DNA of 64,000 nucleotides from a phage. The translations under genes and the position numbers were made by a program. The notes below the pieces were generated by a model. It searched no databases, was not told the DNA's origin, and worked only from the letters and a program-made list of their open reading frames with translations. Where the stretch lies: sequence record PZ495249.1; one strand, 5' to 3'. The first letter of the stretch is position 1, and each line of letters starts with the position of its first letter. Shown here piece after piece: positions 514-51,588 of this stretch.

Positions 514-1617
514 ATGTCTAAGAGTCCATTCCTGAATGCCGTGAAAGGCAATAAGCATGGTGCAAGTGTTCTGACCACTGTTGATGACAAACGCTCTGCA
601 CTGGCTCCAAGTGTGCTGGAAGCAAGCCCTGTGTTTGCTCCGGCAGTTGTTAAACCTGTACCTGCTCTTCCTGCAATGAGCCGCAAGGAGATTGATGGAG
701 TGGGCGCTGAGGCAGGACTAACTCTGCGTAGCCTCAACAGCGAAGTGCTGAAACACCAACGTGGTAATCAAGGCGGGGAGATGAATGAACGCCTCACTGC
801 CCTGATTAAACAGGCTAAACAGCTTGATCCTTCTTCAATCAAGCAGTCAAAAGGCGTTGGTAAATTCATCAAGAAGATCATGGGGCTGAAAGAAGATCTG
901 TTTGCTGAGTACGACAACGTTAACAACCGTATTGATGTTCTGGTGAAAGAACTGGAAGGTGATGTACGTAAAGAGGAAGATTCACTTGTCTATCTGGAAA
1001 AACTGAAATCCGCTATTGCTCAGTACGCCATGAGCCTTAACCGTGATGTGGAACTCCTGACGGACACCTACGCAAAAGAGGAAGCACGTTTCTTGAATAC
1101 ACCAGAGGAACAAGTGGAAACTCGTACCGAGATCCGTGATACCCTGGATATTCTGGAGATTCGTATTGCTGACCTTAAAGCACTGCGTCTGCTGTGTGTT
1201 CAGATGGGACCACGAGTGAACAGTATGATCAAGGTTAGCGAGATGCTTATGCGATCTGCTCGTAACATAGTGAACAACGTTATTCCGGCTTACTCTGCAA
1301 ACTTCTCAATGTATATTGAGAGCTTACGCCAGGCAGAAGCTGGTAAAACTCAGGCTAATGTGTTGGATGAATTCAACACTGCAATTCAAATGGGGAGCGA
1401 TTTGGCTGCACAAAACATTATCAATGCTACGGCTCTGTCTAACCGTCAGATTCTGGACATTGAAACCCTGCGTAAAGATCAGGAAAACCTGGTTAAAATG
1501 CTGGAAGAAACCAACCGCATCAATACCGAGGCTCGCGCCGCTCGTATTGATTACATCAACGAGGTTCAATCCCTGGAAGATGGGATGATCCAAAAAGTCA
1601 AATCTGGCTTAGTGTAA
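514..1617 (+). CDS. TelA-like (toxic anion resistance family) protein, tentative
   Basis: 367 aa, coiled-coil-rich all-alpha protein of typical TelA length; sits directly upstream of a vWA and a TerD gene; RBS aaggagaaagaa before ATG; no motif-level confirmation. Confidence 0.4.
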   Translation: MSKSPFLNAVKGNKHGASVLTTVDDKRSALAPSVLEASPVFAPAVVKPVPALPAMSRKEIDGVGAEAGLTLRSLNSEVLKHQRGNQGGEMNERLTALIKQAKQLDPSSIKQSKGVGKFIKKIMGLKEDLFAEYDNVNNRIDVLVKELEGDVRKEEDSLVYLEKLKSAIAQYAMSLNRDVELLTDTYAKEEARFLNTPEEQVETRTEIRDTLDILEIRIADLKALRLLCVQMGPRVNSMIKVSEMLMRSARNIVNNVIPAYSANFSMYIESLRQAEAGKTQANVLDEFNTAIQMGSDLAAQNIINATALSNRQILDIETLRKDQENLVKMLEETNRINTEARAARIDYINEVQSLEDGMIQKVKSGLV

Positions 1618-1626
1618 GGAGAAAAC

Positions 1627-1833
1627 ATGCGAATTCGTATTTATAAACTGGAAGATGGGTATGTAGCTGTTCGTTATGATGATGAAGAGCAGTTTGCAGG
1701 GAACAGTGATCATATTTTATCTTTCCCTAATCTGGAGCCTGTGTTGGCTGTTGGTCGTGAACTCTATGGTTATGACCAGTGTTCAGCAGAACGCTTTGAT
1801 GAACTTGAGTTGGTCAAGGAGTTTGAGGTATGA
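1627..1833 (+). CDS. hypothetical small protein
   Basis: 68 aa ORF; RBS ggagaaaac before ATG; tightly packed with neighbours. Confidence 0.45.
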   Translation: MRIRIYKLEDGYVAVRYDDEEQFAGNSDHILSFPNLEPVLAVGRELYGYDQCSAERFDELELVKEFEV

Positions 1834-2069
1834 AGATTGCTCTCGTAATTGCCGATTGCGGTGATGGTAGCGCCACTATTCGTTTCTTCAAAGATGTTGA
1901 CTTTGCGGAGAAGATCGCTTACCATGATTACTTCTGTGAAGAGTTAGCAATGAGCGAAGGTGGAACAATCATCGAAGTGCCTGATGACTTCAAACCACCC
2001 GCTGGTTGGTCAGATCAAGACTATCGTGAAGAAGTAGAACGTGCAGGGTTGGATTTAGACGATGAGTGA
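1830..2069 (+). CDS. hypothetical small acidic protein
   Basis: 79 aa ORF; ATGA start/stop overlap with upstream gene. Confidence 0.45.
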   Translation: MKIALVIADCGDGSATIRFFKDVDFAEKIAYHDYFCEELAMSEGGTIIEVPDDFKPPAGWSDQDYREEVERAGLDLDDE

Positions 2070-2268
2070 TAAAATTGTCTTGACACGCGAAGAGTTGAAG
2101 ACTATCATTGAAGACGCATTCATAGATGGTTGGAAGCAAGGGCAAGAATCGGATTGGTACGATGCAGAAGACTTTTTGCACTACCACGCCAATCCAGATG
2201 GTTCTGAGGAAGAAACTCAGTCTGAAACAACCATCGCAATCAAAAACTTAATGGAGGAAAAATTATGA
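2062..2268 (+). CDS. hypothetical small protein
   Basis: 68 aa ORF overlapping the stop of the upstream gene. Confidence 0.45.
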   Translation: MSDKIVLTREELKTIIEDAFIDGWKQGQESDWYDAEDFLHYHANPDGSEEETQSETTIAIKNLMEEKL

Positions 2269-3059
2269 GCGAGAAAATTAGTCTGGTGAAACGTCAGGAA
2301 CAACTGGTAATCAGCCTGAAAAAGAAAAAGATTGCACAGATCGTACTGCGCGTTGCATCTGCACTGGATATCTCCGGTAGTATGCACAGCCTATATCGTA
2401 ACGGGACTGTTAGCGATTTCGTTGGTAAACTCCTGCCGTTCGGTATGCAGTTTGACGATAACCAGCAGATCGATATGTGGGCGTTCAACAACTACTCTTC
2501 TGAACTGCCGCCAGCTACCGCTGACGTGTACGATGACTATGTAGGTAAATGTATGCGTAACGTATCCATCAATGGTGGCACGAGCTACGCACCAGTTATC
2601 CAGGCGATCTACGACGAATACTTTGGCTCTACGCCAATGAAAACTGTATCTCGTGAAGTTGAGGTACAAGAGCAGCGTCCGGTGAGCGGTTTCTTTGCCA
2701 AACTGACAGGTAAAACTGAAACCGTTACTGTCAAGAAAACGATCACAGAACAAGTACCAGATACCTCTGCGCCTGTGGATACCACACCTGCAATGGTGTT
2801 CTTCCAGACTGATGGTGAGAACAATGACGAATCCGCAGTACGCGCTGTACTGAACCGTAACAAAGGTAAACCTATCTACTGGTTCATGGTTGGTGTTGGT
2901 AATGCTCGCTTTAGCTTCCTGAAAGCTCTGGCAAATGAATACGATAACGTAGCTTTCATCGGCATTGATGACCTGGATCTGTCTGACGAGCAACTCTATG
3001 ACAAACTGCTGTCTGATGAGTTTGGTCAGTGGGTTGAGAAAGTAGGTGCAAAAAACTAA
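2265..3059 (+). CDS. von Willebrand factor A domain protein with TerD-like N-terminal ISLxK motifs
   Basis: MIDAS DISGS, then GGTSYAPVIQA and FFQTDGENND vWA motifs; N-terminus MSEKISLVK...ISLKK resembles the TerD N-terminus of the next gene; RBS ggagg. Confidence 0.75.
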   Translation: MSEKISLVKRQEQLVISLKKKKIAQIVLRVASALDISGSMHSLYRNGTVSDFVGKLLPFGMQFDDNQQIDMWAFNNYSSELPPATADVYDDYVGKCMRNVSINGGTSYAPVIQAIYDEYFGSTPMKTVSREVEVQEQRPVSGFFAKLTGKTETVTVKKTITEQVPDTSAPVDTTPAMVFFQTDGENNDESAVRAVLNRNKGKPIYWFMVGVGNARFSFLKALANEYDNVAFIGIDDLDLSDEQLYDKLLSDEFGQWVEKVGAKN

Positions 3060-3068
3060 AAATAGTTG

Positions 3069-3096
3069 TTGACTTACCCGAAGAAATACGTAGAAT
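3069..3096 (+). promoter_or_regulatory. sigma70-like promoter TTGACT-N16-TAGAAT upstream of terD
   Basis: -35 TTGACT at 3069..3074, -10 TAGAAT at 3091..3096. Confidence 0.45.
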
Positions 3097-3109
3097 AGAT
3101 TACATCAAA

Positions 3110-3130
3110 GGGGAAGAGCGGTTCTTCCCC
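3110..3130 (+). promoter_or_regulatory. leader hairpin in the terD 5' UTR
   Basis: Perfect 8 bp stem GGGGAAGA/TCTTCCCC with loop GCGGT between the promoter and the RBS. Confidence 0.4.
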
Positions 3131-3164
3131 CCAGTAAATGAAAACAGAAAGAAGGAGAACATAC

Positions 3165-3767
3165 ATGTCTGAGAAAATTTCCCTGAAAAAAGGTTCCACC
3201 GAAAAGATCTCCCTGAAAAAGATCGCACCTCTGCTGAAAGAGATTCGTCTGGAATTCTCCTGGAAATCATCCACTAAACTGGATCTGGACGTAAGCGCAC
3301 TGGTGTGCCGTCATAATGCCTCTGGTAATCCAGAAATGCTGTCTGCCCGTCACCTGGTTTGCTATGCAAACAAAGTTGATCCAGAGCGTTCAACCTTCGC
3401 TGGCGAAGATGTTCGTGATGGTACTGGCAACCTGGAGCAGATCGATGTTACTCTGAGTAAAATCTCCCAGAATGCAGATGAAATTGCATTCGTGATCACC
3501 ATCGACGATGAAACTGGTCAGAAGCGCCTCGGTCATGCCTCCGAAGGTATGCTGAAAATCTTCGACGCAGAACGTAACGTCGAGATCCTGGACTTTGACT
3601 TCCTTGCACCGGAAGTTGCTGGTAACACCATCTGTCACGTAGCTTCGCTGGTTCGCGAAGATGGCGAATGGAAACTGAAAGCCTACGGTGTTGGTAAAGC
3701 AGGTATGGATATCTGTGATGTGGTGGTAGCATTCGGTGGTGACGTCAACTGGTTTGACTGCCCGTAA
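3165..3767 (+). CDS. terD: TerD-family protein (tellurite resistance / stress response)
   Basis: Protein-level resemblance to E. coli TerD as recalled: MSEKISLKKG...ISLKK, DLDVSALVC, DGEWKLKAYGVGKAG; RBS agaaggagaa before ATG at 3165 (ORF track start 3138 is upstream of the RBS). Confidence 0.85.
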   Translation: MSEKISLKKGSTEKISLKKIAPLLKEIRLEFSWKSSTKLDLDVSALVCRHNASGNPEMLSARHLVCYANKVDPERSTFAGEDVRDGTGNLEQIDVTLSKISQNADEIAFVITIDDETGQKRLGHASEGMLKIFDAERNVEILDFDFLAPEVAGNTICHVASLVREDGEWKLKAYGVGKAGMDICDVVVAFGGDVNWFDCP

Positions 3768-5846: not shown

Positions 5847-6410
5847 ATGATCTTCCACATTACTCCCTATCTTTCTGGTGATATCGGCAAAGGCATCAAC
5901 GATACCATCCGTGAACTGCCGGAAGATAGTTGGATTTGCTTGAGGGATATCGACACGATGTTCCTACTACCAGAACAACCGATGTGGCTTGAAACCCTCG
6001 TCCGTTCTAACCCAGAGTATGATGTTATTGGTGCATCATGCAACCGCTTGGGATCTACTTACCAATTGTTCGGTAACGAAATAAGTGACGATTCAGACAT
6101 ACGCAATCACATAGAAATTGCGAAAGCAGCCCGAACAGCCTGGGGCAATAGCATTGAAGATGTTCCTCTGGGAGTACCACTTGCAGGATTCTTCTTATTA
6201 TTCAGGAAGAGTTTGTGGCAAGAAATTCCATTCGAAGAAAGATCTATTCAATTCGATTTAATCTTCTCTAATACTCTACACGCAGCAGGAAAGCGATTAG
6301 GAATCATGCGAGGAATGTATCTGTTCCATACTTATCGTCTTGGAGCAATCGATCCACGTAGAGCCATTTCGCATCTCATTCACTGCCAGGATATGGAGAA
6401 GGTAATATGA
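5847..6410 (+). CDS. hypothetical protein, possible small GT-A-like glycosyltransferase
   Basis: 187 aa; RBS ggagggagaa; DxD-like RDID motif; first gene of a three-gene block. Confidence 0.3.
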   Translation: MIFHITPYLSGDIGKGINDTIRELPEDSWICLRDIDTMFLLPEQPMWLETLVRSNPEYDVIGASCNRLGSTYQLFGNEISDDSDIRNHIEIAKAARTAWGNSIEDVPLGVPLAGFFLLFRKSLWQEIPFEERSIQFDLIFSNTLHAAGKRLGIMRGMYLFHTYRLGAIDPRRAISHLIHCQDMEKVI

Positions 6411-6436
6411 TTGATAATTTAAGGAGGATGTTAAAC

Positions 6437-7405
6437 ATGCTTGTTCATAAGCCCCGCTTATATTGTGATAACAAGTTAGGGAGTGGGTGCGACTATCACC
6501 GAGTGGTGATGCCTTTTGCTGATAATAAATTCAAACCAAAAGAGAATGTATTGGTGTTCAACCGTATTTATTCTCGTGGTGCAGAAGAGGTTCGCCGTCT
6601 GAAAGAGCGTGGTGTTAAAGTGGTAGTAGATTTAGATGACTTCTATGAACTTAACCCTGAGCATTACCTGGCAAGCGTGTTCACAAGTCACACACAGAAC
6701 ATCATTGACATGGTGAAATTAGCAGATATTGTTATCGTCACCACTGAATATCTGGCTTACAAGGTAAGGCCACTGAATAGAAATGTGGTGGTTATCCGTA
6801 ACGCACTGCCTTTCGACACTGGTCAGTTTACCCTGAGTGAAGATAAAGAGTCAGACACTCCGCTGATATGGGCGGGTGGTGCAAGTCACTATCCTGATCT
6901 ATCTCTTGTCTCGAACAGTTTTGATGATGATTTGTTAACAATTGCCGGATATGAAGAGCACAAGTCTGCTCCTGCTGGTAGTCATCAGCAATTGACAACT
7001 GCCGAGTGGAGAAAAGTCAGACGTAAGCTACCAAATGCACAATACAAACCAGCAGTACATCATTTAGGCGAGTATATGTCGGTGTACGATGGTCATGCCG
7101 TAGCTATTGCTCCCTTGGTTGATAACGACTTCAATGCTTGTAAAAGCAACTTGAAGATCCTGGAGGCAGGAGCTAAGGGACTACCTATCATTTGTTCTAA
7201 GGTGTTACCATATTATAATCCGGTGGATGCTAACGTGGTGTTTTATGCTGAATCCCGCGCAGAATGGCACTACGAGGTGGTGAAACTTCTTCGTAATCCA
7301 AACTACGCAGAGGATCGTGGTTTAATGCTTGCAGAACACGTCAGAACACATTACAATCTTGATGATGCAAATGAATTGCGCCGACAAGTGATCGAAAGTT
7401 TATAA
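6437..7405 (+). CDS. putative GT-B glycosyltransferase, paralog A
   Basis: Shares DGH.V.IAPLVDN.FN.(A/C)KSNLKILEAGAKGLP.ICS and MDLDD blocks with the next gene; start chosen at third in-frame ATG by RBS spacing (6407 and 6428 also possible). Confidence 0.5.
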   Translation: MLVHKPRLYCDNKLGSGCDYHRVVMPFADNKFKPKENVLVFNRIYSRGAEEVRRLKERGVKVVVDLDDFYELNPEHYLASVFTSHTQNIIDMVKLADIVIVTTEYLAYKVRPLNRNVVVIRNALPFDTGQFTLSEDKESDTPLIWAGGASHYPDLSLVSNSFDDDLLTIAGYEEHKSAPAGSHQQLTTAEWRKVRRKLPNAQYKPAVHHLGEYMSVYDGHAVAIAPLVDNDFNACKSNLKILEAGAKGLPIICSKVLPYYNPVDANVVFYAESRAEWHYEVVKLLRNPNYAEDRGLMLAEHVRTHYNLDDANELRRQVIESL

Positions 7406-7413
7406 GGAGTTCT

Positions 7414-8358
7414 ATGCCTAACATTGTGCTTGACACACGCGACGGACATAATTATAGTGTCTGTGATTTCCATAGAATTATCCTTCCATACAAACGAGCG
7501 CTCACCATTAACCCACAACACAATATCTTCGTGTTCAATGGTGTGCCTACTCGTGGGAAGTCAGGATTCCTGGCTCTCAAACAACTTGGTTTCAAAATGG
7601 TTATGGATCTTGATGACTCTCTACATATTCCAGAAGGACATATGCTTGAGGACTTGTTTGATACCCGTATCCGTGATGACCTCAAGTGGTTTTTGGAACG
7701 GAGTGATTTGGTAACAACAACTACTCCTGCTCTCCAGAAAGAACTCTCAGAATATAATGACAACGTGCATATTGTGCCGAATGGTTTGCCTTTCGATGAA
7801 TGGCAATTCACCATAACAAAGGATCGTTATTCTAAGAGTCCACTGGTGTGGGCTGGCAGTGAAACCCATAAACATGACTTGGCAATCCTACCGCCCCTCG
7901 GTAAGATGCTAACACTCTGCGGATTCCGTAGAGACAAAGAAGAGCTAAGTAGCTTGCAATGGATATTGATACGAGAAGATATTCAACCTGATTGTATCTA
8001 TGAAGGTGTCCGACCATACGCCACTTACATGGAATCGTATGACGGTCATCAGGTGAGCATTGCTCCACTTGTGGATAATCCTTTTAATAATGCAAAAAGC
8101 AATCTCAAGATTCTTGAGGCTGGAGCCAAAGGCTTACCGCTGATTTGTTCTCCTCGTGAGAATTATTTCACCGAAGAGTTTAAGGATCTGGTTTACTTTG
8201 CCGATTCATTATCCGAATGGAAAGATCTGGTAGAATACTTAGTAGAGTCTCCAGATATTTGTGTTGAAAAGGGAATGGCCTTAGCCAAATATGTACGTGC
8301 TCAATACAGTATTGACGCATTAAACGAGACTCGTAGATTACTTATTGAGAGGTTGTAA
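7414..8358 (+). CDS. putative GT-B glycosyltransferase, paralog B
   Basis: Tandem paralog of 6437..7405 with the same conserved C-terminal block. Confidence 0.5.
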   Translation: MPNIVLDTRDGHNYSVCDFHRIILPYKRALTINPQHNIFVFNGVPTRGKSGFLALKQLGFKMVMDLDDSLHIPEGHMLEDLFDTRIRDDLKWFLERSDLVTTTTPALQKELSEYNDNVHIVPNGLPFDEWQFTITKDRYSKSPLVWAGSETHKHDLAILPPLGKMLTLCGFRRDKEELSSLQWILIREDIQPDCIYEGVRPYATYMESYDGHQVSIAPLVDNPFNNAKSNLKILEAGAKGLPLICSPRENYFTEEFKDLVYFADSLSEWKDLVEYLVESPDICVEKGMALAKYVRAQYSIDALNETRRLLIERL

Positions 8359-8627
8359 TGAACACATTCGATTTTGAATATAACTTGCCGTCCGGCACTC
8401 CTGTAATTGTCGAAGTAGATTTCTTCTACGAAGAACCAAATCCATTGTCTCGTGAAAGTGATTGGGACTTCTACGGTGGACTCATCATTGATGATGTTCG
8501 TGTCTATGATGGAATGGAAGAAATATCCAACGTAAGTATTACAGGTGCAGAAATAGCTTTCCAATTTAAGAAATACAAGGAAGACTTGGAACTTAATTAT
8601 GTAATGGAGAGCAACGAATATTTTTAA
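8358..8627 (+). CDS. hypothetical small protein
   Basis: 89 aa ORF; start overlaps upstream stop. Confidence 0.4.
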   Translation: MNTFDFEYNLPSGTPVIVEVDFFYEEPNPLSRESDWDFYGGLIIDDVRVYDGMEEISNVSITGAEIAFQFKKYKEDLELNYVMESNEYF

Positions 8628-8639: not shown

Positions 8640-10409
8640 GTGACACATGTTGTAAATAAGTACGGCTTTAATATTGATTTGAGTCGAGAAGGTCACACTG
8701 GTTGTCCACGTTGTATGAAGAATGGTAGAGATCGTTCACAGAATAACTTGATGGTATATGGGTTAGATAGTGGCGGTGAGCACAAAGGAGCACACTGCTT
8801 CTCATGCGAATTTACCATTCCGAGTCAAGAATGGTTGGATGAACACGGTGAAGAAATTGAAGAGGAGGATATCTTGGGAAGCGAGTTCAACCCACAAATT
8901 CATGATAAACTGAAAGAACAAACCGGAACAAACCCACGAGGCTATCGTGGAATCCGAGAAGATATTTCAAAACCCCTGGGTGTACGTTATGGTTATGATG
9001 CTGAAACAGGCAATGTGACAGACACATATTATCCAACCACTAAGAGCTATCAGATCGCAGGTTATAAACACCGCATTGATCCGAAAGACTTTACGCAACC
9101 CGTAGGGGAAACAGGTAAAGAATGTGACCTGTTCGGTGAGTTTAAATATCGAAACCACAGTGGTACAATCGTCATCGTAGGTGGTGAGCATGACATGCTT
9201 GCAGCTACACAGATGCTGATGGATCATAACAAAGGTGGTAAATACCCTGTGCCAGCCGTTGTCTCTGGTACATGCGGTGAGAGTTCCCTGCACAAGCAAC
9301 TGCAATCACGCTACAAGTTCCTTGATCAGTTCAAGAAAATCATTCTCTGCATGGACAATGATGATGCTGGTAGAGCAGCAGTAGAGAAGTGTGTTAAGAT
9401 TCTACCTCGCAACAAAGTGTACGTGATGGACTTAACTGAGGTTAAAGATCCTAATCAGGCACTTGAAGAAGGGAAGGTTGATCACTTCATTGACCGATTC
9501 TTTAAAGCGAAGATGTACACCCCTGCTGGTGTATACGCATCAAACGTCCTGTACGAGGCTGCATTGGAATGTTTGGAGGCTAAGGTCATAACCCTACCGC
9601 CATTCATGCGACAGGCTGCTAACATGCTTGGAGGCGGTTTGGTGGAGGAAGAGATTACTGTTATTCTGGCTAAAACCAGTATCGGTAAAACTCTCCTGGT
9701 GAATGAGATCACCAAACACATTATCATGGCGCACCCAGAGCATACTCTTGGCGTTCTTTCCTTGGAGGCAACGTACAAGAAGTATTCTCGTAACTTGCTG
9801 TCATCTTTCCTGCACATTCCTCTGCACCGTAAAACGGCAGAAGAGAAACAGGAGATCCTGAAAGCGAATGAGGAGAGAATTCGTAACTTCTACGAGCACG
9901 AAGACGGCACTCCACGTTTCTACGTGTGTGATGACCGAGGAGCTAACGTAGACGTTATCAAGGAAAAGGTTCTGGAGATGATCATCTACTTCGGAGTGAC
10001 AATCCTTGTTATCGACCCTTATTCTGACTTGCTTTCTGGTATGGATGTTTCCGCGCAGGAAGAACTCGCAACTTGGCTGAAACGTATTATGAAAGAGTAC
10101 GGTATCACTATTATCGTAATCTCTCACGTTAAGAAGTCTTCCAATAACAGCAATGAACACATTGTGGAAGATGATGCAATGGGTAGTAGCTTCCTGGCTA
10201 AAGGTGCTGGTATCACCATCGCACTGGAACGTGACAAACAAGCAGAAGATCCAATGGAACGAAACCGTACATATTGCTACATCCTCAAGAACCGTGAGTT
10301 CTCTGAGACAGGTGCAGCAGGTAGTTTCTTCTATGAAATCAAGACTGCTACCCTTCATGATTACGATCAGTACATGAACAAACTGCCTGTACCCGAAGGT
10401 AGTTATTAA
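8640..10409 (+). CDS. bifunctional DNA primase-helicase (T7 gp4-like)
   Basis: N-terminal zinc ribbon CPRCMKNG...CFSCEF, central TOPRIM-like region, Walker A ILAKTSIGKT; GTG start after RBS aggaga. Confidence 0.85.
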   Translation: MTHVVNKYGFNIDLSREGHTGCPRCMKNGRDRSQNNLMVYGLDSGGEHKGAHCFSCEFTIPSQEWLDEHGEEIEEEDILGSEFNPQIHDKLKEQTGTNPRGYRGIREDISKPLGVRYGYDAETGNVTDTYYPTTKSYQIAGYKHRIDPKDFTQPVGETGKECDLFGEFKYRNHSGTIVIVGGEHDMLAATQMLMDHNKGGKYPVPAVVSGTCGESSLHKQLQSRYKFLDQFKKIILCMDNDDAGRAAVEKCVKILPRNKVYVMDLTEVKDPNQALEEGKVDHFIDRFFKAKMYTPAGVYASNVLYEAALECLEAKVITLPPFMRQAANMLGGGLVEEEITVILAKTSIGKTLLVNEITKHIIMAHPEHTLGVLSLEATYKKYSRNLLSSFLHIPLHRKTAEEKQEILKANEERIRNFYEHEDGTPRFYVCDDRGANVDVIKEKVLEMIIYFGVTILVIDPYSDLLSGMDVSAQEELATWLKRIMKEYGITIIVISHVKKSSNNSNEHIVEDDAMGSSFLAKGAGITIALERDKQAEDPMERNRTYCYILKNREFSETGAAGSFFYEIKTATLHDYDQYMNKLPVPEGSY

Positions 10410-10778: not shown

Positions 10779-13364
10779 ATGGGAGCATTTACTTTCGACA
10801 TTGAAAGTAACAACTTGCTTAATGATGAGAGTGTGGATTACCTGTCAAGTCCTTATCGACTGAAAGACAGTTTCGAGATGCACTGTATTGTATGCGAGAG
10901 TCATGACACCGGAGAGATTATTGCTTTCCACGATGGAGACAAGTATCACTTCGATGGTCGTCCTTACGTAGAGACTGACGGGAAATACACTTACAGCCTG
11001 TTAGAATACGAACATCAGGATTACACCCATTTTCCAATGAGCGCATTCCGAGACTTCGTTAAAGGCACTGGTGTATTTGCCAACAAACCTCAGTACAAGA
11101 TTACGAAAGTAGTTGGTCATAACATTATCAACTTTGACTTGTTAGCCATTAAACTCTACTTTAAAATGAATTACAGCGTGAAATACAATACTTGGGATAA
11201 TCAGGATGTAGAAATCTGTGATACCATGATCCTGAGTAAAGTGCTGAACCCTGACCGTTTCGGTGGTCATAGCCTGGCGGAATTATCCAGCAAGGCAGGT
11301 GGTGATGTTAAGCTTGACTTCCGTAAAGATATTCCGGTTGAAGATCGATTCAAAACGTTTGCAGCAGACATGCTCTATTACTGTATTTACGATAACAAAT
11401 CGAACACCGCCGTATATAAATATCTGATGGAAGAATGGGGAGACTACGATAAATGGGCGGAACCATTTATTCTTGAACAACGTATTGCTGATATTATCAC
11501 TCGTCAGGAACACCGTGGCTTCGCTTTCAATATGAAACAAGCCGAAGAGAATATAAAAGATCTTGATTCTAAGATGGAAGCGTGTAGACTTGAGGCTGAA
11601 CCTATTCTTCCTCCGAAACCTGCAACGAAAGGTTATCTGAAAGACTTCATTCCGCCTAAACTCCAGTTTAAGAAGAATGGTGATCCAACGAGTAACATTA
11701 CGAAGTTTGCAGCTAAGCATGGTGGTGAACTGGTTGAACGTGAAGATGGATGGTGGTTGATCGCCTTGGATAAGGAAATGAAACTTCCTATCTCCAGTGA
11801 AGAGCCAATCTGTGAACCTACTGTTCCGGCTACACTGAACGACACGACACACATCAAGAACTGGCTGGTAGGATTAGGCTGGAGTCCTTCTGAGTACAAA
11901 GATAAAGACATTACGTTGAAGTCTGGTACTAAGATTAAAAAGGACGAGGCGCAGATGGAGAAAGCGATTCGCGATTACGTGGATCAAACTTTAGCATCAA
12001 ACTTCTGTCAAGATCGTTGTGACCACCTTGAATGTACGCCTGAAACTCTTGAGTGGAAGCTGCGTGACCGTATTGCTAAGGCAAAAGGTAAAGGTGTGAA
12101 GGTATTGACTAACCCATCATTCACCAAGGGGCAGGAGAAAGAGATTTGTCCTAACTTGGCTGAACTGGGTGAGAAGTTCCCGTATGCTACCCAGATCGTG
12201 GAATACCTGACGTACAAACACCGTCGAAACTCTATTCTCGGTGGTGGTGCAGATTGGGAAGATGATGAAGAGGATCAGGAATACAACAAAGGTTATCTTG
12301 CAGCAGTAAGGGCAGACGGGCGTATTCCAACGCCAGCGGCAACGTGTGACGCTGCTACTTCTCGTATGAAACACCGTCTTGTTGCTAACATTCCTCGTGT
12401 AACCTCTCTATACGGTTTCCAGATGCGTAACATGTTTGGTGTAGAGGTTCCGGCATACTTCCAGATTGGTTATGACTTTGACTCACTTGAGGCGAAGATT
12501 GAATCACATTACTGCTGGAGATATGAAGCAGAGCCGCATGAATATTGTAACGCTCTTCTGTTAGAAAAGCCGCACGATGTTCACTCAATGATGGCACGAC
12601 GCATTACAGAAACTATCGGACGTAAGTTTGAACGTGCTCCGGCTAAATCTGTTAAGTATGGTATCACATACGGCGCTCAGGCTGCGAAGGTGGCTAAGAC
12701 AATCGGTAGTGATATGCACACAGGCCAGATGGTTTATGATGCATTCTGGGAAGCTGCAAAGCCTCTCGCATTACTGAAAGAACGTCTGCATGACTTCTGG
12801 GTTAAAACAGGTAAGAAATACATTCTCGGTATCGACGGACGTAAAGTGCCTACCCGTTCTGCTCACGCTATCCTGAACTCACTTTTCCAGAGTGGCGGGG
12901 TAATCTGTGCGAAACGTGCAATGGTGATTTACGACGACCTGATCGAAGAAGAAGGGCTGGCAGTTGACTTCTTTGTTGACGATTGGAAAAACAAATCCTT
13001 CGTGCAGCAAATGATCGCTTACCACGATGAAGCACAACTTGAGGTTACTCGTGACCTGGTTGAGTTCAAATGGTTCTCCAAAGAATCTCTGGGCTGGATT
13101 CAAGTTGAGGATGAGAAAGAGCAGGAACGAATCGACAAAGAATGTATGGCTAAAGTAAATGCGTGGAAAGCTGAGGAAGAAACTCGTACTGGTAAGATCT
13201 GGGCTAACGTACACGAATCTCCGAAAGGTGGTTGGTTTACTGGCTACAGTCGTGCAGGTGAACTGGCATCCATCGCAGTTAAGAAAGCAGGTGAATTCTA
13301 TGGCCTGAACGTAGAACTGACAGCAGGTTATGACTTAGGTAATTCCTGGGCGTCCTGTCACTGA
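10779..13364 (+). CDS. DNA polymerase, family A, with 3'-5' exonuclease domain
   Basis: Exo I FDIESNN; motif A YDFDSLEAKI; motif B RAPAKSVKYGITYGAQAAK; motif C YHDEAQLEV; 861 aa. Confidence 0.9.
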   Translation: MGAFTFDIESNNLLNDESVDYLSSPYRLKDSFEMHCIVCESHDTGEIIAFHDGDKYHFDGRPYVETDGKYTYSLLEYEHQDYTHFPMSAFRDFVKGTGVFANKPQYKITKVVGHNIINFDLLAIKLYFKMNYSVKYNTWDNQDVEICDTMILSKVLNPDRFGGHSLAELSSKAGGDVKLDFRKDIPVEDRFKTFAADMLYYCIYDNKSNTAVYKYLMEEWGDYDKWAEPFILEQRIADIITRQEHRGFAFNMKQAEENIKDLDSKMEACRLEAEPILPPKPATKGYLKDFIPPKLQFKKNGDPTSNITKFAAKHGGELVEREDGWWLIALDKEMKLPISSEEPICEPTVPATLNDTTHIKNWLVGLGWSPSEYKDKDITLKSGTKIKKDEAQMEKAIRDYVDQTLASNFCQDRCDHLECTPETLEWKLRDRIAKAKGKGVKVLTNPSFTKGQEKEICPNLAELGEKFPYATQIVEYLTYKHRRNSILGGGADWEDDEEDQEYNKGYLAAVRADGRIPTPAATCDAATSRMKHRLVANIPRVTSLYGFQMRNMFGVEVPAYFQIGYDFDSLEAKIESHYCWRYEAEPHEYCNALLLEKPHDVHSMMARRITETIGRKFERAPAKSVKYGITYGAQAAKVAKTIGSDMHTGQMVYDAFWEAAKPLALLKERLHDFWVKTGKKYILGIDGRKVPTRSAHAILNSLFQSGGVICAKRAMVIYDDLIEEEGLAVDFFVDDWKNKSFVQQMIAYHDEAQLEVTRDLVEFKWFSKESLGWIQVEDEKEQERIDKECMAKVNAWKAEEETRTGKIWANVHESPKGGWFTGYSRAGELASIAVKKAGEFYGLNVELTAGYDLGNSWASCH

Positions 13365-14977: not shown

Positions 14978-15886
14978 ATGCCAGTAATTAATTCCGAAAT
15001 CGACCGCAAGACTAAACAAGAAGCATTCTGGGCTGAGGGTATTGTAGAATACGTTAAGCTGGATAAGTTTGCAGAGATGAAAGTCTCTTACATTAAAGTC
15101 GCTGGTCAGCCGGATAAGAAAATTGAGTCCACTCACAAAGCTTCCATTCTTCTGAAAGAGAAAGGTGCTGGTAAGGATGATCCAGGTGTTTGGATCGGTC
15201 TGGGTGATGTTAAGCTGCATCCAGAGCATGAAAATCTGCAAGTCAAGAAAGACGACCAGTGGGTGACTATCGAACGTGGTGTTGAAATTACACTGGACGT
15301 TAAGCCTAATGAATGGCAGGGTAAAACTTATTACCAATCATCCAAAGGTAAGATCTTCGTTGTATCTACCGAAGGTGTTCAAGCTGCTGCTCCGAAAGCA
15401 GGAAAAGGTGGTGATAGCACTCCAGCTAAACAACCGTTCAAGAAACGCGATACCGTAGGTATTGAAACTGGTCACGCTGTTAACGGTGCTCTTGAGCTAA
15501 TCCGTGGTGGTGTGAAAGGTGATGCCTTTGAACTCGCAGGTGTAGTACAGTCTGCCACTGTAACGCTGAAAGCAGAAGTTGCTAAGGCTCGTGGTGTGGA
15601 TATCACTGATTACGATCTGGGTGCTTCTGTCGGTCATGCTATCCTGAATGCTTGCCGTGATCACTCTCGCGATGATGTGACCATTGACGAACTGATTGAA
15701 GCTGCTCGCGATGTGCTGGCGCTATCTGATAAGGTGGCTGCTGCAATCCGTGGTGATGCTCCTGTTGCTGAATCCAAACCAGCCGCAGAGAAGCCAAAGA
15801 CAACTCGTAAGCCAAAAGAGGCGGTAAAAGCTCCTGAGCCAGAGCCAGAACCTCCAATGGACTTCGACGACGATATTCCTTTCTAA
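14978..15886 (+). CDS. ssb: single-stranded DNA-binding protein
   Basis: Ends PMDFDDDIPF, the canonical acidic SSB C-terminal tail; Gly/Ala/Pro-rich linker; RBS agaggagaa; sits with polymerase and primase. Confidence 0.8.
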   Translation: MPVINSEIDRKTKQEAFWAEGIVEYVKLDKFAEMKVSYIKVAGQPDKKIESTHKASILLKEKGAGKDDPGVWIGLGDVKLHPEHENLQVKKDDQWVTIERGVEITLDVKPNEWQGKTYYQSSKGKIFVVSTEGVQAAAPKAGKGGDSTPAKQPFKKRDTVGIETGHAVNGALELIRGGVKGDAFELAGVVQSATVTLKAEVAKARGVDITDYDLGASVGHAILNACRDHSRDDVTIDELIEAARDVLALSDKVAAAIRGDAPVAESKPAAEKPKTTRKPKEAVKAPEPEPEPPMDFDDDIPF

Positions 15887-15899
15887 GGATAAAAATAAA

Positions 15900-15930
15900 G
15901 GGAGCCTCTTTCGAGGTTCCCTTTTTTATT
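15900..15930. terminator. bidirectional intrinsic terminator between the convergent plus and minus modules
   Basis: GGGAGCCTC-TTTC-GAGGTTCCC flanked by an A run upstream and TTTTTTATT downstream; SSB ends at 15886 and the minus-strand gene ends at 15929. Confidence 0.7.
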
Positions 15931-17803: not shown

Positions 17804-20296
17804 TTAAGCGTAACCACCTGGTTTGAAACCAAGTAGGCTCGTTCCGTCCCATAACAGACTAACTGTGCAACGTCCAGTGGTGTAGGTTGGAGCCGTTCCA
17901 TCTGTCCAGTTGATTGTGTTAGTCCATGACACTGAACCTGTATTACCAGTGAAGATAACAACAATGGTCATCGCTCTACCCGCTGGTAGGTTAGTAATCG
18001 TTAGGGTTTTGCTTGATGCCAGAGAGACAGTAAACACTTGTCCCTGACTTGCGTCAAGTGTAGCAGTTGCAGTAGATACAGCCAAATCGTAACGATTTAG
18101 ACGAGTCCACACACCACCGCTTTGCATGTAATATCCATCTGTGGTAGGGGCTTTCGCCAGTGTTTCTACCCAAGCTGTATCTTTACGTGCATAAACTTTC
18201 CCATCAGCAGGAGCATCTGAGATTCCTGGAGAAGGAATCGTAAACGCTGTCCAACCACCGTCTTTACGAGCGTACATAGAGCCATCGCTTGGTGCGTCAT
18301 AGACGTTACCACCACCCATGTAACCCATAGAAGCCCAGTTAAGGCTGCTGGTTTTCTGGAAGAACTGTAGTGTTAAGGAGTTTAGGAAGTAGTCGCCTAC
18401 ACGTCCGTCAGCAGGTCCAGGGTTACGCTGCAATACGATCCACAGTGTACCTTGATCACCCTTATCACCTTTCACACCCTGCGCACCTTGCGGTCCCGCT
18501 GGTCCCTGGATATTACCTGCGTTCTGGTATGATCCATTTCCTGAGCTATCTACGTTCCAAACCCAGAAGTTGCCATCAATCAGATAACCTTCACCGATGG
18601 TTCCAGTTGCAGGAAGATCTGCGGTTGAATCAAGTTCACCAAGGATCTTAACCCCTGGTCCCATAGGACCTGGAATACCCTGAATACCTTGTTCCCCTTG
18701 AATACCCTGCTCACCCTGGATACCTTGTGGACCGCTGTTCACGCCCATATCGATCCAAGCTGTACCGCTCCAGATGTATGAACGCTGGTGAATGTAGTAC
18801 ATGTCACCTTGAATGTTACCAGTGGTAGGTAGGTCTGAGGTGTTACTTAGTTCACCCTTCGCATGAATAGAATTACCAGTGGCTCCTGTTGCACCTTGTT
18901 CCCCTTGGATGCCACGAAGAACACCCATATCCACCCAACCTTCACTCTTGTCAAAGTTTAGCGTATAGATGTAAAGATTGCCAGTGTCTTCTAAGCTATA
19001 TGCGCTACCGTATGGAGGCTTAACTGGAAGATCGCTTGCAGATGGTACTTGACCTTTAGCGGTGATTGAGATACCTTGTAGAACACCAGCGTTGAGCCAT
19101 TCACCAGTTCCTGCAACAGGATCTATTGCTACCCAAATATAGATGTATTTATCAGGACCGACTAAGTAAGCTGTACCATAATTAACATCTTCCGGCGGAG
19201 GTAATTGACTTTCGTTATCTACTTCACCTACGATGTTAAGACCTGTACCAGGAACACCTTGGATACCAGGTACACCTTGCTCGCCTTGGATACCTTGTTC
19301 ACCTCTATCTCCTTTATCTCCCTTCAGAGATGCAAGGAAATCGGCTTCGGAACCAAAGTTACCAGCATTAATCCAGATTTGGTAAGCGGAGTCCCCGTCT
19401 TTACCATCTGCACCGTTTGTACCAGCATTACCTTTGTCTCCCTTATCCCCTTTGTCGCCTTTCGGACCGACAATAGCTCCCATGTCCACCCACGCAGTAC
19501 CGTTAGATACGTAGAGGTAGGTTCCATAGCTCCATGCCTGAGATACGTTAGCTGGAGATGGTAGTGGCAGTAGTCCAGGATCAGAGATAGCACCCTGATA
19601 ATCAAATCCGTTAGCGTTTACACCAGGATCACCTTTCTGTCCTTGTGGACTTGGATCACCTTTATCGCCCTTGATGGATTGAACGAAGTCAAGCTCTGTA
19701 CCTGTGTTACCAACGTCTAACCAACTTTGATACGCAGATTTACCTTCCGGTCCCACTTGACCAACAGGCGACCATTGGATACTATCCCATACCCACATTT
19801 GCTCTTGAACAATATATGCATCACCAGGAGAGTTTCCTGTCATAGGTAGGTCGGATACAGAATCAAAGCTTCCTTTGATTACAAGACCACTACCTGTATC
19901 TCCTTTCAGAGAATCAAGCCATTCTTGTTCAGTACCGACGAAGCCATTATCTACCGCAATATCATATGCAGATTTACCAGCTTCTGGAATTTGTGTAGCG
20001 AGGTCGTCGATCTCTTGTTGAATAGTTGTGAACTTGGCATTGATAATAGCAATATCGTCAGCTTTACCAACGTTAACCCAAGTGTTAACACCGATGCCAC
20101 CTGTAGAACCAGGGGTAGAGTTTGCTGGAACGACTTTCGGTAAAGCGCCCTTCCATTGATAGTAGTTACCGTCTGTATCGTACAGTAATACTTCTCTTGC
20201 ATTTGTTAATGTAAAGCCAGCTACAAAGCTTCTACGCTTTCTGTAGGTAGCTTCGACCATATCAGCAATAGCGCTATTAGGTCTTGTTAGAATCAT
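17804..20296 (-). CDS. tail fibre protein with collagen-like Gly-X-Y repeats
   Basis: 830 aa; GXY tracts such as GPQGIQGEQGIQGEQGIQGIPGPMGPG and GPKGDKGDKGDKGNAGTNGADGKDG. Confidence 0.7.
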   Translation of the reverse strand: MILTRPNSAIADMVEATYRKRRSFVAGFTLTNAREVLLYDTDGNYYQWKGALPKVVPANSTPGSTGGIGVNTWVNVGKADDIAIINAKFTTIQQEIDDLATQIPEAGKSAYDIAVDNGFVGTEQEWLDSLKGDTGSGLVIKGSFDSVSDLPMTGNSPGDAYIVQEQMWVWDSIQWSPVGQVGPEGKSAYQSWLDVGNTGTELDFVQSIKGDKGDPSPQGQKGDPGVNANGFDYQGAISDPGLLPLPSPANVSQAWSYGTYLYVSNGTAWVDMGAIVGPKGDKGDKGDKGNAGTNGADGKDGDSAYQIWINAGNFGSEADFLASLKGDKGDRGEQGIQGEQGVPGIQGVPGTGLNIVGEVDNESQLPPPEDVNYGTAYLVGPDKYIYIWVAIDPVAGTGEWLNAGVLQGISITAKGQVPSASDLPVKPPYGSAYSLEDTGNLYIYTLNFDKSEGWVDMGVLRGIQGEQGATGATGNSIHAKGELSNTSDLPTTGNIQGDMYYIHQRSYIWSGTAWIDMGVNSGPQGIQGEQGIQGEQGIQGIPGPMGPGVKILGELDSTADLPATGTIGEGYLIDGNFWVWNVDSSGNGSYQNAGNIQGPAGPQGAQGVKGDKGDQGTLWIVLQRNPGPADGRVGDYFLNSLTLQFFQKTSSLNWASMGYMGGGNVYDAPSDGSMYARKDGGWTAFTIPSPGISDAPADGKVYARKDTAWVETLAKAPTTDGYYMQSGGVWTRLNRYDLAVSTATATLDASQGQVFTVSLASSKTLTITNLPAGRAMTIVVIFTGNTGSVSWTNTINWTDGTAPTYTTGRCTVSLLWDGTSLLGFKPGGYA
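18460..19435 (-). repeat. coding collagen-like GXY repeat region inside the tail fibre gene
   Basis: Five or more interrupted Gly-X-Y tracts; approximate boundaries. Confidence 0.6.
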
Positions 20297-44560: not shown

Positions 44561-45040
44561 TTAGTCCTTCTTGACTATTCTACCCATAGCGCCAATGCTC
44601 AAGCCTTTAAGAACTCCGTCCTTACGTGCTTGGTATAGCTCTGCGTCGTAGAATTGGATTTTAACGAGAGGTGTACCTTCAACAACGAGTTCGTCACCAA
44701 TATAACAATCAACTTCATTAACCCATGCTTTAACTGGTTTAAATTTGTCAGTGTTTTTCAAGTGACCAAGATTGCCACTTACGTTGGCAATGTTTGCGTT
44801 GAAGTTGTCAACCATCTTTCTGATCTCAAGGTCAGACATACGTTCACCGTGAAGGTCGTCGTATTCTGGTGGACAATACATCACTTCGATAACTTGCATT
44901 TGTTCTTCATCAAACTTATTGTGTTTGATTACTTGCGCAGGTGTATCTTCTGGTGTAGAATCTTGTTGAGATGTGGAATCCTTACCCATAGCTTTAAAGG
45001 TTTCGAATAGATTCCAAAGTGTGTCTTTATTCAGTTCCAT
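44561..45040 (-). CDS. hypothetical head morphogenesis protein
   Basis: 159 aa between portal and scaffold. Confidence 0.35.
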   Translation of the reverse strand: MELNKDTLWNLFETFKAMGKDSTSQQDSTPEDTPAQVIKHNKFDEEQMQVIEVMYCPPEYDDLHGERMSDLEIRKMVDNFNANIANVSGNLGHLKNTDKFKPVKAWVNEVDCYIGDELVVEGTPLVKIQFYDAELYQARKDGVLKGLSIGAMGRIVKKD

Positions 45041-50449: not shown

Positions 50450-50524
50450 TGGTTGTAGCAGATGGAATCGAACCATCATCAATCGGTTATCAGCCGAACG
50501 TATTAGCCGTTATACTATGCCACA
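50450..50524 (-). tRNA. tRNA-Ile (anticodon GAT)
   Basis: 7 bp acceptor with encoded CCA, loop CTGATAA, T arm GATGG-TTCGATT-CCATC; hand-folded. Confidence 0.55.
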
Positions 50525-50530
50525 ATTGTT

Positions 50531-50613: not shown

Positions 50614-50619
50614 ATTGTT

Positions 50620-50695: not shown

Positions 50696-50776
50696 CTTTT
50701 GGTTGATAGTAAGAGAATCAAACTCTTCTCACAACGCCGTATGAAAGCGTCCGAAACATCAGCTTCACACTATCAA

Positions 50777-51359: not shown

Positions 51360-51367
51360 ATTTAATT

Positions 51368-51582: not shown

Positions 51583-51588
51583 ATTGTT

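What the first reader, a model, noticed from the sequence alone, without database searches (positions are those of the whole stretch)
5847..8358. Three glycosyltransferase-like genes, two of them tandem paralogs, directly upstream of the replisome genes
Genes 6437..7405 and 7414..8358 share a long conserved C-terminal block typical of GT-B nucleotide-sugar binding regions, and a smaller DxD-containing protein precedes them. Their position next to primase-helicase and polymerase is where DNA-modifying enzymes usually sit, so a glycosylation-based DNA hypermodification (anti-restriction) system is a reasonable hypothesis; no base hydroxymethylase is visible in this window.
Basis: inference. Interest (0 to 1): 0.55.

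Follow-up and report, generated by a model that had tools for sequence, protein, structure and literature searches.

The report
Mobile phage glycosyltransferase cassette, target unknown
Three real sugar-transferring enzymes sit next to the DNA-replication genes of a phi92-like phage, but the evidence favours them building a sugar chain on something other than DNA, most plausibly the virus particle's own proteins.

Summary
5847-6410 encodes a 187-aa minimal GT-A enzyme with an invariant DxD motif. 6437-7405 and 7414-8358 encode full-length tandem GT-B paralogs (37% identity, E 6e-74). Both predicted folds are high confidence. The window is a new relative of phi92 and phAPEC8 (Stephanstirmvirinae), where this cassette is conserved and already annotated.

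The DNA-hypermodification idea was published for this family in 2020, but the evidence goes against it:
- E. coli relatives with the complete cassette plus rmlABCD are "exceptionally susceptible" to restriction.
- No base hydroxylase is present in the window, and relatives carry only ThyX.
- The GT-B fold matches GT4 enzymes, not T4 DNA glucosyltransferases.
- All three proteins are acidic.

The cassette is mobile. A lambda-like siphovirus carries the same genes in the same order (46-50% identity), inserted right after its major capsid gene, and only its capsid and tail-tube proteins end in PTT. Other homologues sit in head modules or in large cassettes with sugar-modifying genes.

Best reading: a glycan-assembly module acting on a non-DNA acceptor, most plausibly virion proteins (about 0.4). 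DNA glycosylation remains possible (about 0.2). No acceptor has been shown experimentally. This is a new member of a known kind, of moderate interest.

The parts
5847..6410 (+). GT187: a 187-aa soluble, acidic, minimal GT-A (GT2-like) glycosyltransferase with a DxD motif (D34-I-D36). It is present in every variant of the cassette.
   Evidence: PHROG 14179, E 1e-102. No Pfam or NCBIfam hit. AlphaFold pLDDT 89.3. Foldseek GT-A matches: LH3 GT domain 7e-5, LARGE1, RmlT 6e-4, ColGalT1, ppGalNAc-T. Invariant D34, D36, N66, R67, H88, D137, H161, Y163, R164, H176. Family of 1,114 representative clusters. pI 5.3, no TM segment.
6437..7405 (+). GT-B1: a 322-aa GT4-like GT-B glycosyltransferase (the ORF is open from 6407; 6437 is the favoured start). 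It is the more widely conserved of the two paralogs.
   Evidence: PHROG 7162, E 7e-140. Weak Pfam Glyco_trans_1_4 and Glyco_trans_1_2 hits. 77% identical to alia gp045, 67% to KP2025, 50% to the siphovirus L016 and 40% to L006. Keeps all 13 invariant family residues. RBS AGGAGG upstream.
7414..8358 (+). GT-B2: a 314-aa tandem paralog of GT-B1, GT4-like GT-B glycosyltransferase. It is a variable member, absent from Klebsiella phages KP2025 and FKP3 and from L016.
   Evidence: 37% identity to GT-B1, E 6e-74. PHROG 7162, E 1.5e-134. Pfam Glyco_trans_1_2 25.1 bits against a 25-bit cut-off, plus Glyco_transf_4 N-domain. AlphaFold pLDDT 91.6, pTM 0.90. Foldseek top hits are GT4 enzymes: GlgM 7.6e-10, BshA, TreT, SdgB, PglA, MshA, GtfC, TarM, PimA. 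pI 5.3.
8358..8627 (+). orf89: a conserved, very acidic 89-aa ORF between the cassette and the primase-helicase. It is context, probably not part of the cassette.
   Evidence: PHROG 4240, unknown function. Present before the primase-helicase in all relatives whatever their GT content. No counterpart in the siphovirus cassette L016.

Best explanation
The three genes form a conserved, horizontally mobile glycan-assembly cassette.

GT187 is a metal-dependent DxD GT-A enzyme. GT2-like enzymes invert the anomeric configuration, by CAZy knowledge. Because it is present in every variant, it probably attaches the first sugar to the acceptor.

GT-B1 and its tandem duplicate GT-B2 are GT4-like enzymes, normally retaining by CAZy knowledge. 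They probably extend the chain, giving a short, lineage-variable oligosaccharide.

The sugar donors would be host UDP-sugars plus, in this phage family, dTDP-L-rhamnose from a phage-encoded rml operon. That operon lies outside this window in relatives, and its presence in this phage is unverified.

The acceptor is most likely not DNA. My single most likely candidate is one or more virion structural proteins, giving a glycan coat on the capsid or tail surface as in glycosylated mycobacteriophages.

Shown here: the gene structure, the folds, the conserved catalytic-type residues, the variation in cassette content, and the mobility of the cassette. Inferred: the order of action, the donors and the acceptor.
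For: Identity of the enzymes:
- High-confidence GT-A and GT-B models.
- Invariant DxD in GT187, and invariant D67, D68, N123, H152, D155, K228, S229, E235 in both paralogs.

The cassette is modular and mobile:
- {187, 228-type, B1, B2} in E. coli Justusliebigvirus and in metagenomic locus L015.
- {187, B1, B2} in this window.
- {187, B1} in KP2025 and FKP3.
- {187, 228-type, B1} at 46-50% identity, inserted 25 nt after the major capsid gene and 13 nt before the head-tail adaptor gene of a lambda-like siphovirus, L016. Spacing that tight implies co-transcription with the late head genes.
- The closest sequenced relative of L016, PseuP_222 (90% identical capsid), lacks the cassette.

A link to virion proteins:
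[quoted passage not shown] PseuP_222 ends in PPAGG and YLTSV.
- In mycobacteriophages, tandem GTs with an O-methyltransferase glycosylate exactly the capsid and tail-tube C-termini (PMC11600133 and PMC12619734, citing Freeman 2023).
- GT187 homologues lie inside head modules in Cellulophaga phage phi17:1 and in contig L005.
- A distant GT-B homologue plus a sugar epimerase lies just before terminase, portal and capsid in Streptomyces phage Zuko.

The wider families build complex glycans:
- GT187 domains are fused to TOD1/MUCI70, GT2 and Methyltransf_24 domains.
- They neighbour DegT aminotransferases, dehydratases, a radical-SAM gene, a deacetylase and UDP-galactopyranose mutase.

Against a DNA acceptor:
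- RM-sensitivity of relatives.
- No hydroxylase found.
- No similarity to T4 GTs.
- Acidic proteins, net charge -7, -4 and -12.
Against: - No glycoprotein has been reported for phi92-type virions. The literature search found none, and the phi92 paper itself could not be read.
- In this subfamily the cassette is packed into the same apparent transcription unit as the primase-helicase, so it is probably expressed early or in the middle of infection, not late.
- The window has no adjacent O-methyltransferase. The candidate in the head module turned out to be a prohead protease.
- The window's capsid, decoration, sheath and tube proteins share no common C-terminal tag (...LTTA...VFTS...TTVSS...LTIQ). 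The capsid has no C-terminal extension relative to cassette-less Vequintavirus capsids.
- Thr/Pro-rich capsid C-termini also occur in relatives of L016 that show no cassette in the fetched regions, so the PTT argument rests on one phage pair.
- The 228-type GT of relatives weakly resembles the DNA-modifying TAGT family.
Confidence: 0.4

Rival explanations
1. DNA glycosylation. The enzymes would transfer sugars, possibly rhamnose, onto a hydroxylated or otherwise reactive base in phage DNA, either sparsely or at specific sequences, to evade some DNA-targeting defence.
For: - The cassette lies in one gene block with the primase-helicase and DNA polymerase. A distant cassette (L013) also lies next to PolA and DnaB.
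- In relatives the rml operon lies among nucleotide-metabolism genes (PMC7552041).
- The 228-type GT of relatives has a sub-threshold match to Pfam TAGT (E 3.9e-5, 24.1 bits against a 27.5-bit cut-off) and to the PHROG of the T-even beta-glucosyl-HMC-alpha-glucosyltransferase.
- Relatives encode a C5-cytosine methylase.
- GT4-like GT-B enzymes are known to act on 5hmC DNA in other phages (bioRxiv 10.1101/2023.12.21.572611).
- Late co-expression with head genes in L016 would also suit a modification made just before packaging.
Against: - phi92-like phages carrying the full cassette and the rml genes are 'exceptionally susceptible' to RM systems (PMC8594841). They are also targeted by systems thought to act on unmodified DNA.
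- No ThyA-type hydroxylase or TET/5mYOX enzyme is in the window or annotated in 136 kb of alia. Its thymidylate synthase is ThyX.
- This window lacks the TAGT-like gene.
- GT187 has no TAGT match, and a TAGT protein ranks only 44th among viral structures.
- T4 alpha- and beta-GT are absent from the top structural and sequence matches.
- All three proteins are acidic.
- Homologous cassettes carry sugar O-methyl, amino and deacetylase chemistry and sit in head modules.
Confidence: 0.2
2. Remodelling of a host envelope glycan. The soluble GTs would act at the inner face of the membrane on undecaprenyl-linked or LPS, ECA or exopolysaccharide intermediates. This would change surface glycans during infection, for example to exclude superinfecting phages or to stop progeny adsorbing to cell debris.
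For: - GT4 and GT2 families, and dTDP-rhamnose, are the standard toolkit of O-antigen, ECA and capsule synthesis.
- Structural neighbours include PglA, PimA/B', TarM and RmlT.
- The nearest bacterial relative (L014) sits in a polysaccharide-type cluster.
- These phages recognise surface glycans as receptors.
- Early or middle expression alongside replication genes fits a host-takeover role.
Against: - There is no membrane segment or Gtr-type partner.
- In L016 the cassette is embedded without room for its own promoter or terminator in the late head operon, a time at which changing the envelope has little value.
- A strictly lytic phage leaves little time for glycan turnover.
- No flippase, polymerase or initiating phosphoglycosyl transferase lies nearby.
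Confidence: 0.18
3. Synthesis of a soluble glycoside, or glycosylation of a host protein or small molecule. This is the sense of the GenBank label 'putative disaccharide synthase'. Examples would be a rhamnoside or disaccharide metabolite, or the modification or sequestration of a host factor or immune signal.
For: - The best structural matches of the GT-B include small-molecule glycoside synthases: GlgM, BshA, MshA, TreT, sucrose-phosphate synthase and a tetrahydrobiopterin glucosyltransferase.
- The BASEL annotators named both paralogs 'putative disaccharide synthase'.
- The genome neighbourhood contains a Ter-type cluster (TelA, TerD, vWA-TerF) whose chemistry is not understood.
Against: - Structural ranking among GT4 enzymes is nearly flat (E 1e-10 to 1e-7, TM 0.5-0.6), so it does not identify the acceptor.
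- Three or four GTs with varying membership suggest an oligosaccharide rather than one metabolite.
- Placement in head modules in other phages is unexplained by this reading.
Confidence: 0.12

Closest known systems
The glycosyltransferase cluster of Justusliebigvirus and Phapecoctavirus (phi92, alia, Bas60-62, phAPEC8)
   Same: Orthologous genes in the same place: SleB-type endolysin, small ORFs, the GT cluster, orf89, primase-helicase, PolA. Identities to alia are 79% (GT187), 77% (GT-B1) and 83% (GT-B2).
   Different: This window has three genes, not four. The 228-aa PHROG-2456 GT is missing from the cassette and from all 64 kb. DNA identity to any sequenced phage is only about 75-77%, so this is a new lineage within the subfamily. 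No function has been shown experimentally for any of these genes.
Virion-glycosylation cassettes of mycobacteriophages (Che8, cluster O / Corndog; Freeman et al. 2023, read only through citing papers)
   Same: Tandem phage-encoded GTs. Homologous cassettes of the present families carry an O-methyltransferase and sit beside capsid genes. [quoted passage not shown]
   Different: No sequence comparison with the mycobacteriophage enzymes was made. The host is Gram-negative. In this window the cassette is in the replication block, there is no O-methyltransferase, and no glycoprotein evidence exists.
T-even DNA glucosyltransferases and TAGT / 5mYOX-linked DNA glycosylation pathways
   Same: Phage-encoded GT-A and GT-B enzymes placed near DNA-metabolism genes. 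Sugar-nucleotide supply genes are present in the family.
   Different: No structural or sequence match to T4 alpha- or beta-GT. No TAGT match for the window's proteins. No hydroxymethylase, 5hoC synthase or TET. Relatives are restriction-sensitive.
Chlorovirus PBCV-1 A064R and giant-virus capsid or fibril glycosylation (recalled from established literature, not tested here)
   Same: Virus-encoded multi-step machinery of rhamnosyl-type transferases plus a methyltransferase that acts on virion proteins. The GT187 family shows comparable MT-GT-GT fusions and structural matches to giant-virus GT2 proteins.
   Different: A resemblance of architecture only. No homology was shown, and the window's enzymes are single-domain proteins.

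Membership tests
GT-B fold, GT4-like (Pfam Glycos_transf_1 clan) | Two Rossmann-like domains with an interdomain cleft | tested here: met
   AlphaFold model pLDDT 91.6, pTM 0.90. 237 PDB matches at E<=1e-3, and the top 50 are GT-B enzymes, mostly GT4.
GT-B fold, GT4-like (Pfam Glycos_transf_1 clan) | Sequence match above the curated Pfam threshold | tested here: inconclusive
   GT-B2 reaches PF13524 at 25.1 bits against a 25-bit cut-off. GT-B1 stays below threshold (21.6 against 27 bits for PF13692).
GT-B fold, GT4-like (Pfam Glycos_transf_1 clan) | C-terminal nucleotide-sugar motif (the EX7E-type Glu and Lys residues of GT4 enzymes) | tested here: inconclusive
   K228, S229 and E235 are invariant in 29 sequences, within the block 'KSNLKILEAGAKGLP'. 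The first Glu of a canonical EX7E is not present. The residues were not mapped onto a ligand-bound structure.
GT-A fold, GT2-like | Single Rossmann-like domain with a DxD metal-binding motif | tested here: met
   Model pLDDT 89.3. All significant PDB matches are GT-A enzymes. D34-x-D36 is invariant.
GT-A fold, GT2-like | Match to Pfam Glycos_transf_2 or another curated GT-A model | tested here: not met
   No Pfam hit at E<=1 and no NCBIfam hit for the window protein. Only some distant family members touch PF00535 within this domain (P0087). The family has no curated model.
T4-type DNA glucosyltransferases (alpha-GT, beta-GT) | Structural or sequence similarity to T4 AGT or BGT | tested here: not met
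   Neither is among the top 50 Foldseek PDB hits, nor in the profile search of PDB sequences at E<=1.
T4-type DNA glucosyltransferases (alpha-GT, beta-GT) | A partner enzyme that makes a hydroxylated base (ThyA-type dCMP or dUMP hydroxymethylase, or a 5hoC synthase) | tested here: not met
   None in the 64-kb window. The relative alia has only a ThyX-type enzyme (Pfam Thy1). The rest of this phage's genome could not be retrieved.
T4-type DNA glucosyltransferases (alpha-GT, beta-GT) | Virion DNA resistant to restriction or containing glycosylated nucleosides | not testable with these tools
   Indirect only: relatives Bas60-62 are reported as highly RM-sensitive (PMC8594841).
TAGT / 5mYOX-associated DNA glycosylation | Match to Pfam TAGT (PF20691), and a neighbouring TET/JBP dioxygenase or C5-methylase | tested here: not met
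   No TAGT hit for any window protein. Only the 228-aa GT of relatives, absent here, has a sub-threshold hit. No methylase or dioxygenase is in the window.
Phage virion-glycosylation cassettes (mycobacteriophage type) | Tandem GT genes, with an O-methyltransferase | tested here: inconclusive
   Tandem GTs are present. No methyltransferase is in or near the window's cassette. Methyltransf_24 is adjacent to or fused with homologues elsewhere.
Phage virion-glycosylation cassettes (mycobacteriophage type) | Glycans on the C-termini of capsid and tail-tube subunits | not testable with these tools
   Suggestive only: a shared PTT terminus on the capsid and tail tube of the cassette-bearing siphovirus L016, absent in its cassette-less relative. 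No shared tag in this window.
Lysogenic-conversion O-antigen glucosylation (GtrABC type) | Integral-membrane GtrA flippase, GtrB and a serotype-specific GT | tested here: not met
   All three proteins are soluble. The maximum 19-residue hydropathy is 0.7-1.4, and none matches these families.

The most novel reading that the evidence does not exclude
This cassette is the first virion-protein glycosylation system of phages infecting Gram-negative bacteria. It would be a mobile three- or four-enzyme module that decorates exposed structural proteins (capsid, tail surface, or the collagen-like tail fibre) with a short glycan, which in this family would contain rhamnose from phage-made dTDP-rhamnose. 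In the siphovirus version the enzymes would recognise a C-terminal tag such as PTT. That would also explain why a strictly lytic coliphage family carries a complete dTDP-rhamnose pathway while its DNA stays restriction-sensitive.
Probability: 0.3. Interest if true: 0.7.

Novelty: new member of a known kind. Interest (0 to 1): 0.4.

Why it matters
Phi92- and phAPEC8-type phages have very broad host ranges and are candidates for therapy. Their unusual combination of a complete dTDP-rhamnose pathway with several glycosyltransferases has been noted but never explained. The one published idea, DNA glycosylation, conflicts with their restriction sensitivity.

If the cassette coats the virion with glycans, as in some mycobacteriophages, it would affect antibody recognition, stability and perhaps adsorption, all of which matter for therapeutic use.

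Finding the cassette in a siphovirus head operon, and finding that GT187 belongs to a family of about 1,100 clusters with no curated model, gives concrete handles: knockouts, virion mass spectrometry and C-terminal-tag tests. If the cassette instead modifies DNA sparsely, it would be a new and subtle kind of DNA modification.

Tried and rejected
1. A small 'DNA methyltransferase' annotated between portal and capsid in RefSeq alia might have been a sugar O-methyltransferase like the one beside the phi17:1 GT. The window's orthologue (44561-45040, minus strand) is an XkdF-type prohead protease with no similarity to Methyltransf_24. Rejected.

2. Collagen link. GT187's best PDB matches are collagen glycosyltransferases, and the window, alia and phi17:1 all encode collagen-like tail fibres. 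However, FKP3's fetched tail-fibre region and the L005 locus show none, and collagen-like fibres are common in phages. Kept only as a weak lead.

3. C-terminal tag test in the window's own lineage. The structural proteins share no common terminus, and the capsid has no extension relative to Vequintavirus capsids. Uninformative.

4. Thr/Pro-rich capsid termini also occur in relatives of L016 that show no cassette in the fetched regions, so that argument is weak beyond the L016 / PseuP_222 pair.

5. I first read FKP3 as {GT187 + 228-type GT}. Local tblastn showed that its '230-aa GT' is a frameshift-split GT-B1, and that its 228-type GT lies elsewhere at 137 kb. Corrected.

6. Retrieving the rest of this phage's genome failed: no exact protein on record and no exact DNA match in viral contigs. 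So rmlABCD and any hydroxylase could not be checked for this phage.

7. The promoter and terminator scan showed nothing above chance.

8. NCBIfam gave no names.

9. The phi92 genome paper and Freeman et al. 2023 are not held in the library. The Durham-collection and 5-hydroxycytosine papers do not cover this family.
Full report
**What is there**

The window's first 16 kb is a plus-strand replication block. In it, three ORFs lie head to tail:
- 5847-6410 (187 aa, called GT187 here)
- 6437-7405 (322 aa, GT-B1; the ORF is open from 6407)
- 7414-8358 (314 aa, GT-B2)

An 89-aa ORF (8358-8627), a Toprim/DnaB primase-helicase (8640-10409) and a family-A DNA polymerase (10779-13364) follow. Spacing is tight: a 4-nt overlap or 26-nt gap, then 8 nt, a 1-nt overlap and 12 nt. 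No promoter or terminator signal exceeds chance, so one transcription unit is likely. An AGGAGG box and the lengths of homologues favour 6437 as the start of GT-B1.

**Checking the observation**

GT-B1 and GT-B2 are true paralogs over their full length: 37% identity, E 6e-74.

GT-B2 models as a GT-B fold (pLDDT 91.6). Its best solved-structure matches are GT4-type enzymes: GlgM, BshA, MshA, TreT, SdgB, PglA, GtfC, TarM and PimA, at E 1e-10 to 1e-7. T4 alpha- and beta-glucosyltransferases appear neither there nor in a profile search of PDB sequences. Thirteen residues are invariant across 29 family members, including both paralogs, so both look catalytically competent.

GT187 has an invariant D34-x-D36 motif. 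It models as a minimal GT-A fold (pLDDT 89.3) and matches only GT-A enzymes: the LH3 and ColGalT1 collagen glycosyltransferases, LARGE1, the Listeria rhamnosyltransferase RmlT, and ppGalNAc-Ts. No Pfam or NCBIfam model covers it. Even so, a profile search finds 1,114 representative clusters. All three proteins are soluble and acidic.

**Whose genome**

The window is about 75-77% identical in DNA to both Justusliebigvirus (phi92-like) and Phapecoctavirus (phAPEC8-like). It is therefore a new lineage within Stephanstirmvirinae. The cassette is conserved and already annotated in that subfamily.

Its gene content varies between relatives:
- E. coli relatives and a divergent metagenomic relative (L015) have four genes: 187, a 228-aa PHROG-2456 GT, B1 and B2.
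- This window lacks the 228-aa gene throughout its 64 kb.
- Klebsiella phage KP2025 has only 187 and B1.
- FKP3 also has only 187 and B1, with B1 split by frameshifts.

GT187 and GT-B1 are therefore the constant core, and GT-B2 is a lineage-specific duplicate.

**The DNA hypothesis**

Olsen et al. 2020 already proposed rhamnosylation of hydroxymethylated nucleotides for these phages, because they carry rmlABCD (PMC7552041). In alia that operon sits about 68 kb from the GT cluster, among nucleotide-metabolism genes. This region lies outside the window, and I could not retrieve the rest of this genome.

Evidence against an anti-restriction role:
- The BASEL study found phi92-like phages "exceptionally susceptible" to RM systems "despite a putative dTDP glycosylation machinery" (PMC8594841). 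Bas61 carries all four GTs.
- Bas61 and Bas62 are also targeted by Druantia III and ARMADA II, which are thought to act on unmodified DNA (PMC13463889).
- No base hydroxylase is in the window, and alia's thymidylate synthase is ThyX-type.
- None of the window's proteins matches the TAGT family.

The one hint in favour is a sub-threshold TAGT-like match of the 228-aa GT in relatives. That gene is absent from this window.

**Position is not conserved**

A homologue of GT-B1 (50% identity) lies in a lambda-like siphovirus contig, L016. Local tblastn showed that the gene caller had missed a GT187 homologue there (46% identity, 8861-9469, with its own RBS and DxD motif).

L016 therefore carries 187, a 228-type GT and B1 in the same order as the myovirus cassette. 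The insertion begins 25 nt after the major capsid gene and ends 13 nt before the head-tail adaptor gene. Its closest sequenced relative, PseuP_222 (90% identical capsid), has no cassette.

Other homologues show the same pattern:
- GT187 homologues lie inside head modules in Cellulophaga phage phi17:1, fused to a TOD1/MUCI70 domain and next to Methyltransf_24, and in contig L005, together with UDP-galactopyranose mutase, a GT2, a deacetylase and two methyltransferases.
- A distant GT-B homologue plus an epimerase precedes terminase, portal and capsid in Streptomyces phage Zuko.
- Other homologues sit in large cassettes with aminotransferase, dehydratase, radical-SAM and methyltransferase genes. 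One of these lies next to PolA and DnaB.
- The nearest bacterial relative is in a polysaccharide-type cluster.
- Domain fusions of the GT187 family are with GT2, TOD1/MUCI70 and Methyltransf_24 domains.

**Mechanism**

These data fit a module that assembles a short and variable glycan. The constant member GT187 would prime the acceptor, and the GT-B enzymes would extend the chain.

Tight embedding in a late head operon (L016) argues against host-envelope remodelling. It fits either virion proteins or pre-packaging modification of DNA. Restriction sensitivity, the missing hydroxylase, the acidic proteins and the sugar-tailoring chemistry of related cassettes tip the balance toward virion proteins.

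[quoted passage not shown] These are the two proteins glycosylated at their C-termini in mycobacteriophages, by tandem GTs next to an O-methyltransferase. The cassette-less relative PseuP_222 lacks those endings. This rests on one pair of phages, and I found no equivalent tag in the window.

My estimates are virion or protein glycan 0.40, DNA 0.20, host envelope 0.18 and soluble glycoside or other target 0.12. The rest allows for something not considered.

**Verdict**

The cassette is a three-gene variant of a known, annotated but functionally uncharacterised phage GT cluster. Interest is moderate. The open question is real, and it now has sharper and cheaper tests.

Noticed in passing
window 50450-55838 (- strand): An array of 23 tRNA genes. 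It includes a tRNA with anticodon CUA (amber-suppressor type; ARAGORN labels it tRNA-Pyl) at 54066-54140.
   Followed up: no
window 514-3767 (+ strand): A Ter-type ('tellurite resistance') gene set just upstream of the endolysin and GT cassette: TelA (514-1617), vWA-TerF-like (2265-3059) and TerD (3138-3767). It is conserved in relatives, which also carry TerC. Its role in a lytic phage is unknown.
   Followed up: partly
window 17804-20296 (- strand): An 830-aa tail-fibre protein with four collagen-like (G-X-Y)7-9 runs separated by repeated modules. Alia gp032 and Cellulophaga phi17:1 gp52 are also collagen-like. GT187's best PDB matches are collagen glycosyltransferases, but the association did not hold in FKP3 or L005.
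   Followed up: partly
window 44561-45040 (- strand); alia gp002 (L010 1410-1889): RefSeq annotates the alia orthologue as 'DNA methyltransferase', but the window protein is an XkdF-type prohead protease (Pfam Peptidase_S78_2, E 1e-10). This is a likely mis-annotation in the public record.
   Followed up: yes
L016 8861-9469 (+ strand): The stored gene calls for this metagenomic siphovirus contig show a 170-aa minus-strand ORF at 8828-9340. The real gene is a 202-aa plus-strand GT187 homologue with its own RBS.
   Followed up: yes
L002 20578-21540 (Klebsiella phage FKP3, PP895363): GT-B1 is complete but split over three reading frames and annotated as a 230-aa glycosyltransferase. Other FKP3 genes are also split, for example the NinI-like phosphatase. 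This suggests sequencing frameshifts or pseudogenes.
   Followed up: partly
window 15886-15929, compared with L001 15729-16848 (Bas61): Bas61 has a Dam-like N6-adenine methyltransferase and a 143-aa gene between the replication block and the tail-fibre genes. The window has neither there, and no Dam homologue anywhere in its 64 kb.
   Followed up: partly
phage collection records MG065689, MG065639, MG065654 ('Campylobacter phage' A110a, A150, C15): Records labelled as Campylobacter jejuni phages carry near-identical Justusliebigvirus- or Vequintavirus-type genes (about 78-83% aa identity to the window's GTs) and have coliphage-like genome sizes. The host labels look doubtful.
   Followed up: no
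L007 25886-27294 (FKP3), compared with L004 27523-30783 (alia): FKP3 is annotated with only rmlC and rmlD, whereas alia has rmlB, A, C and D. The sugar-nucleotide pathway therefore also varies within the subfamily, perhaps relying on host RmlA and RmlB in Klebsiella.
   Followed up: no
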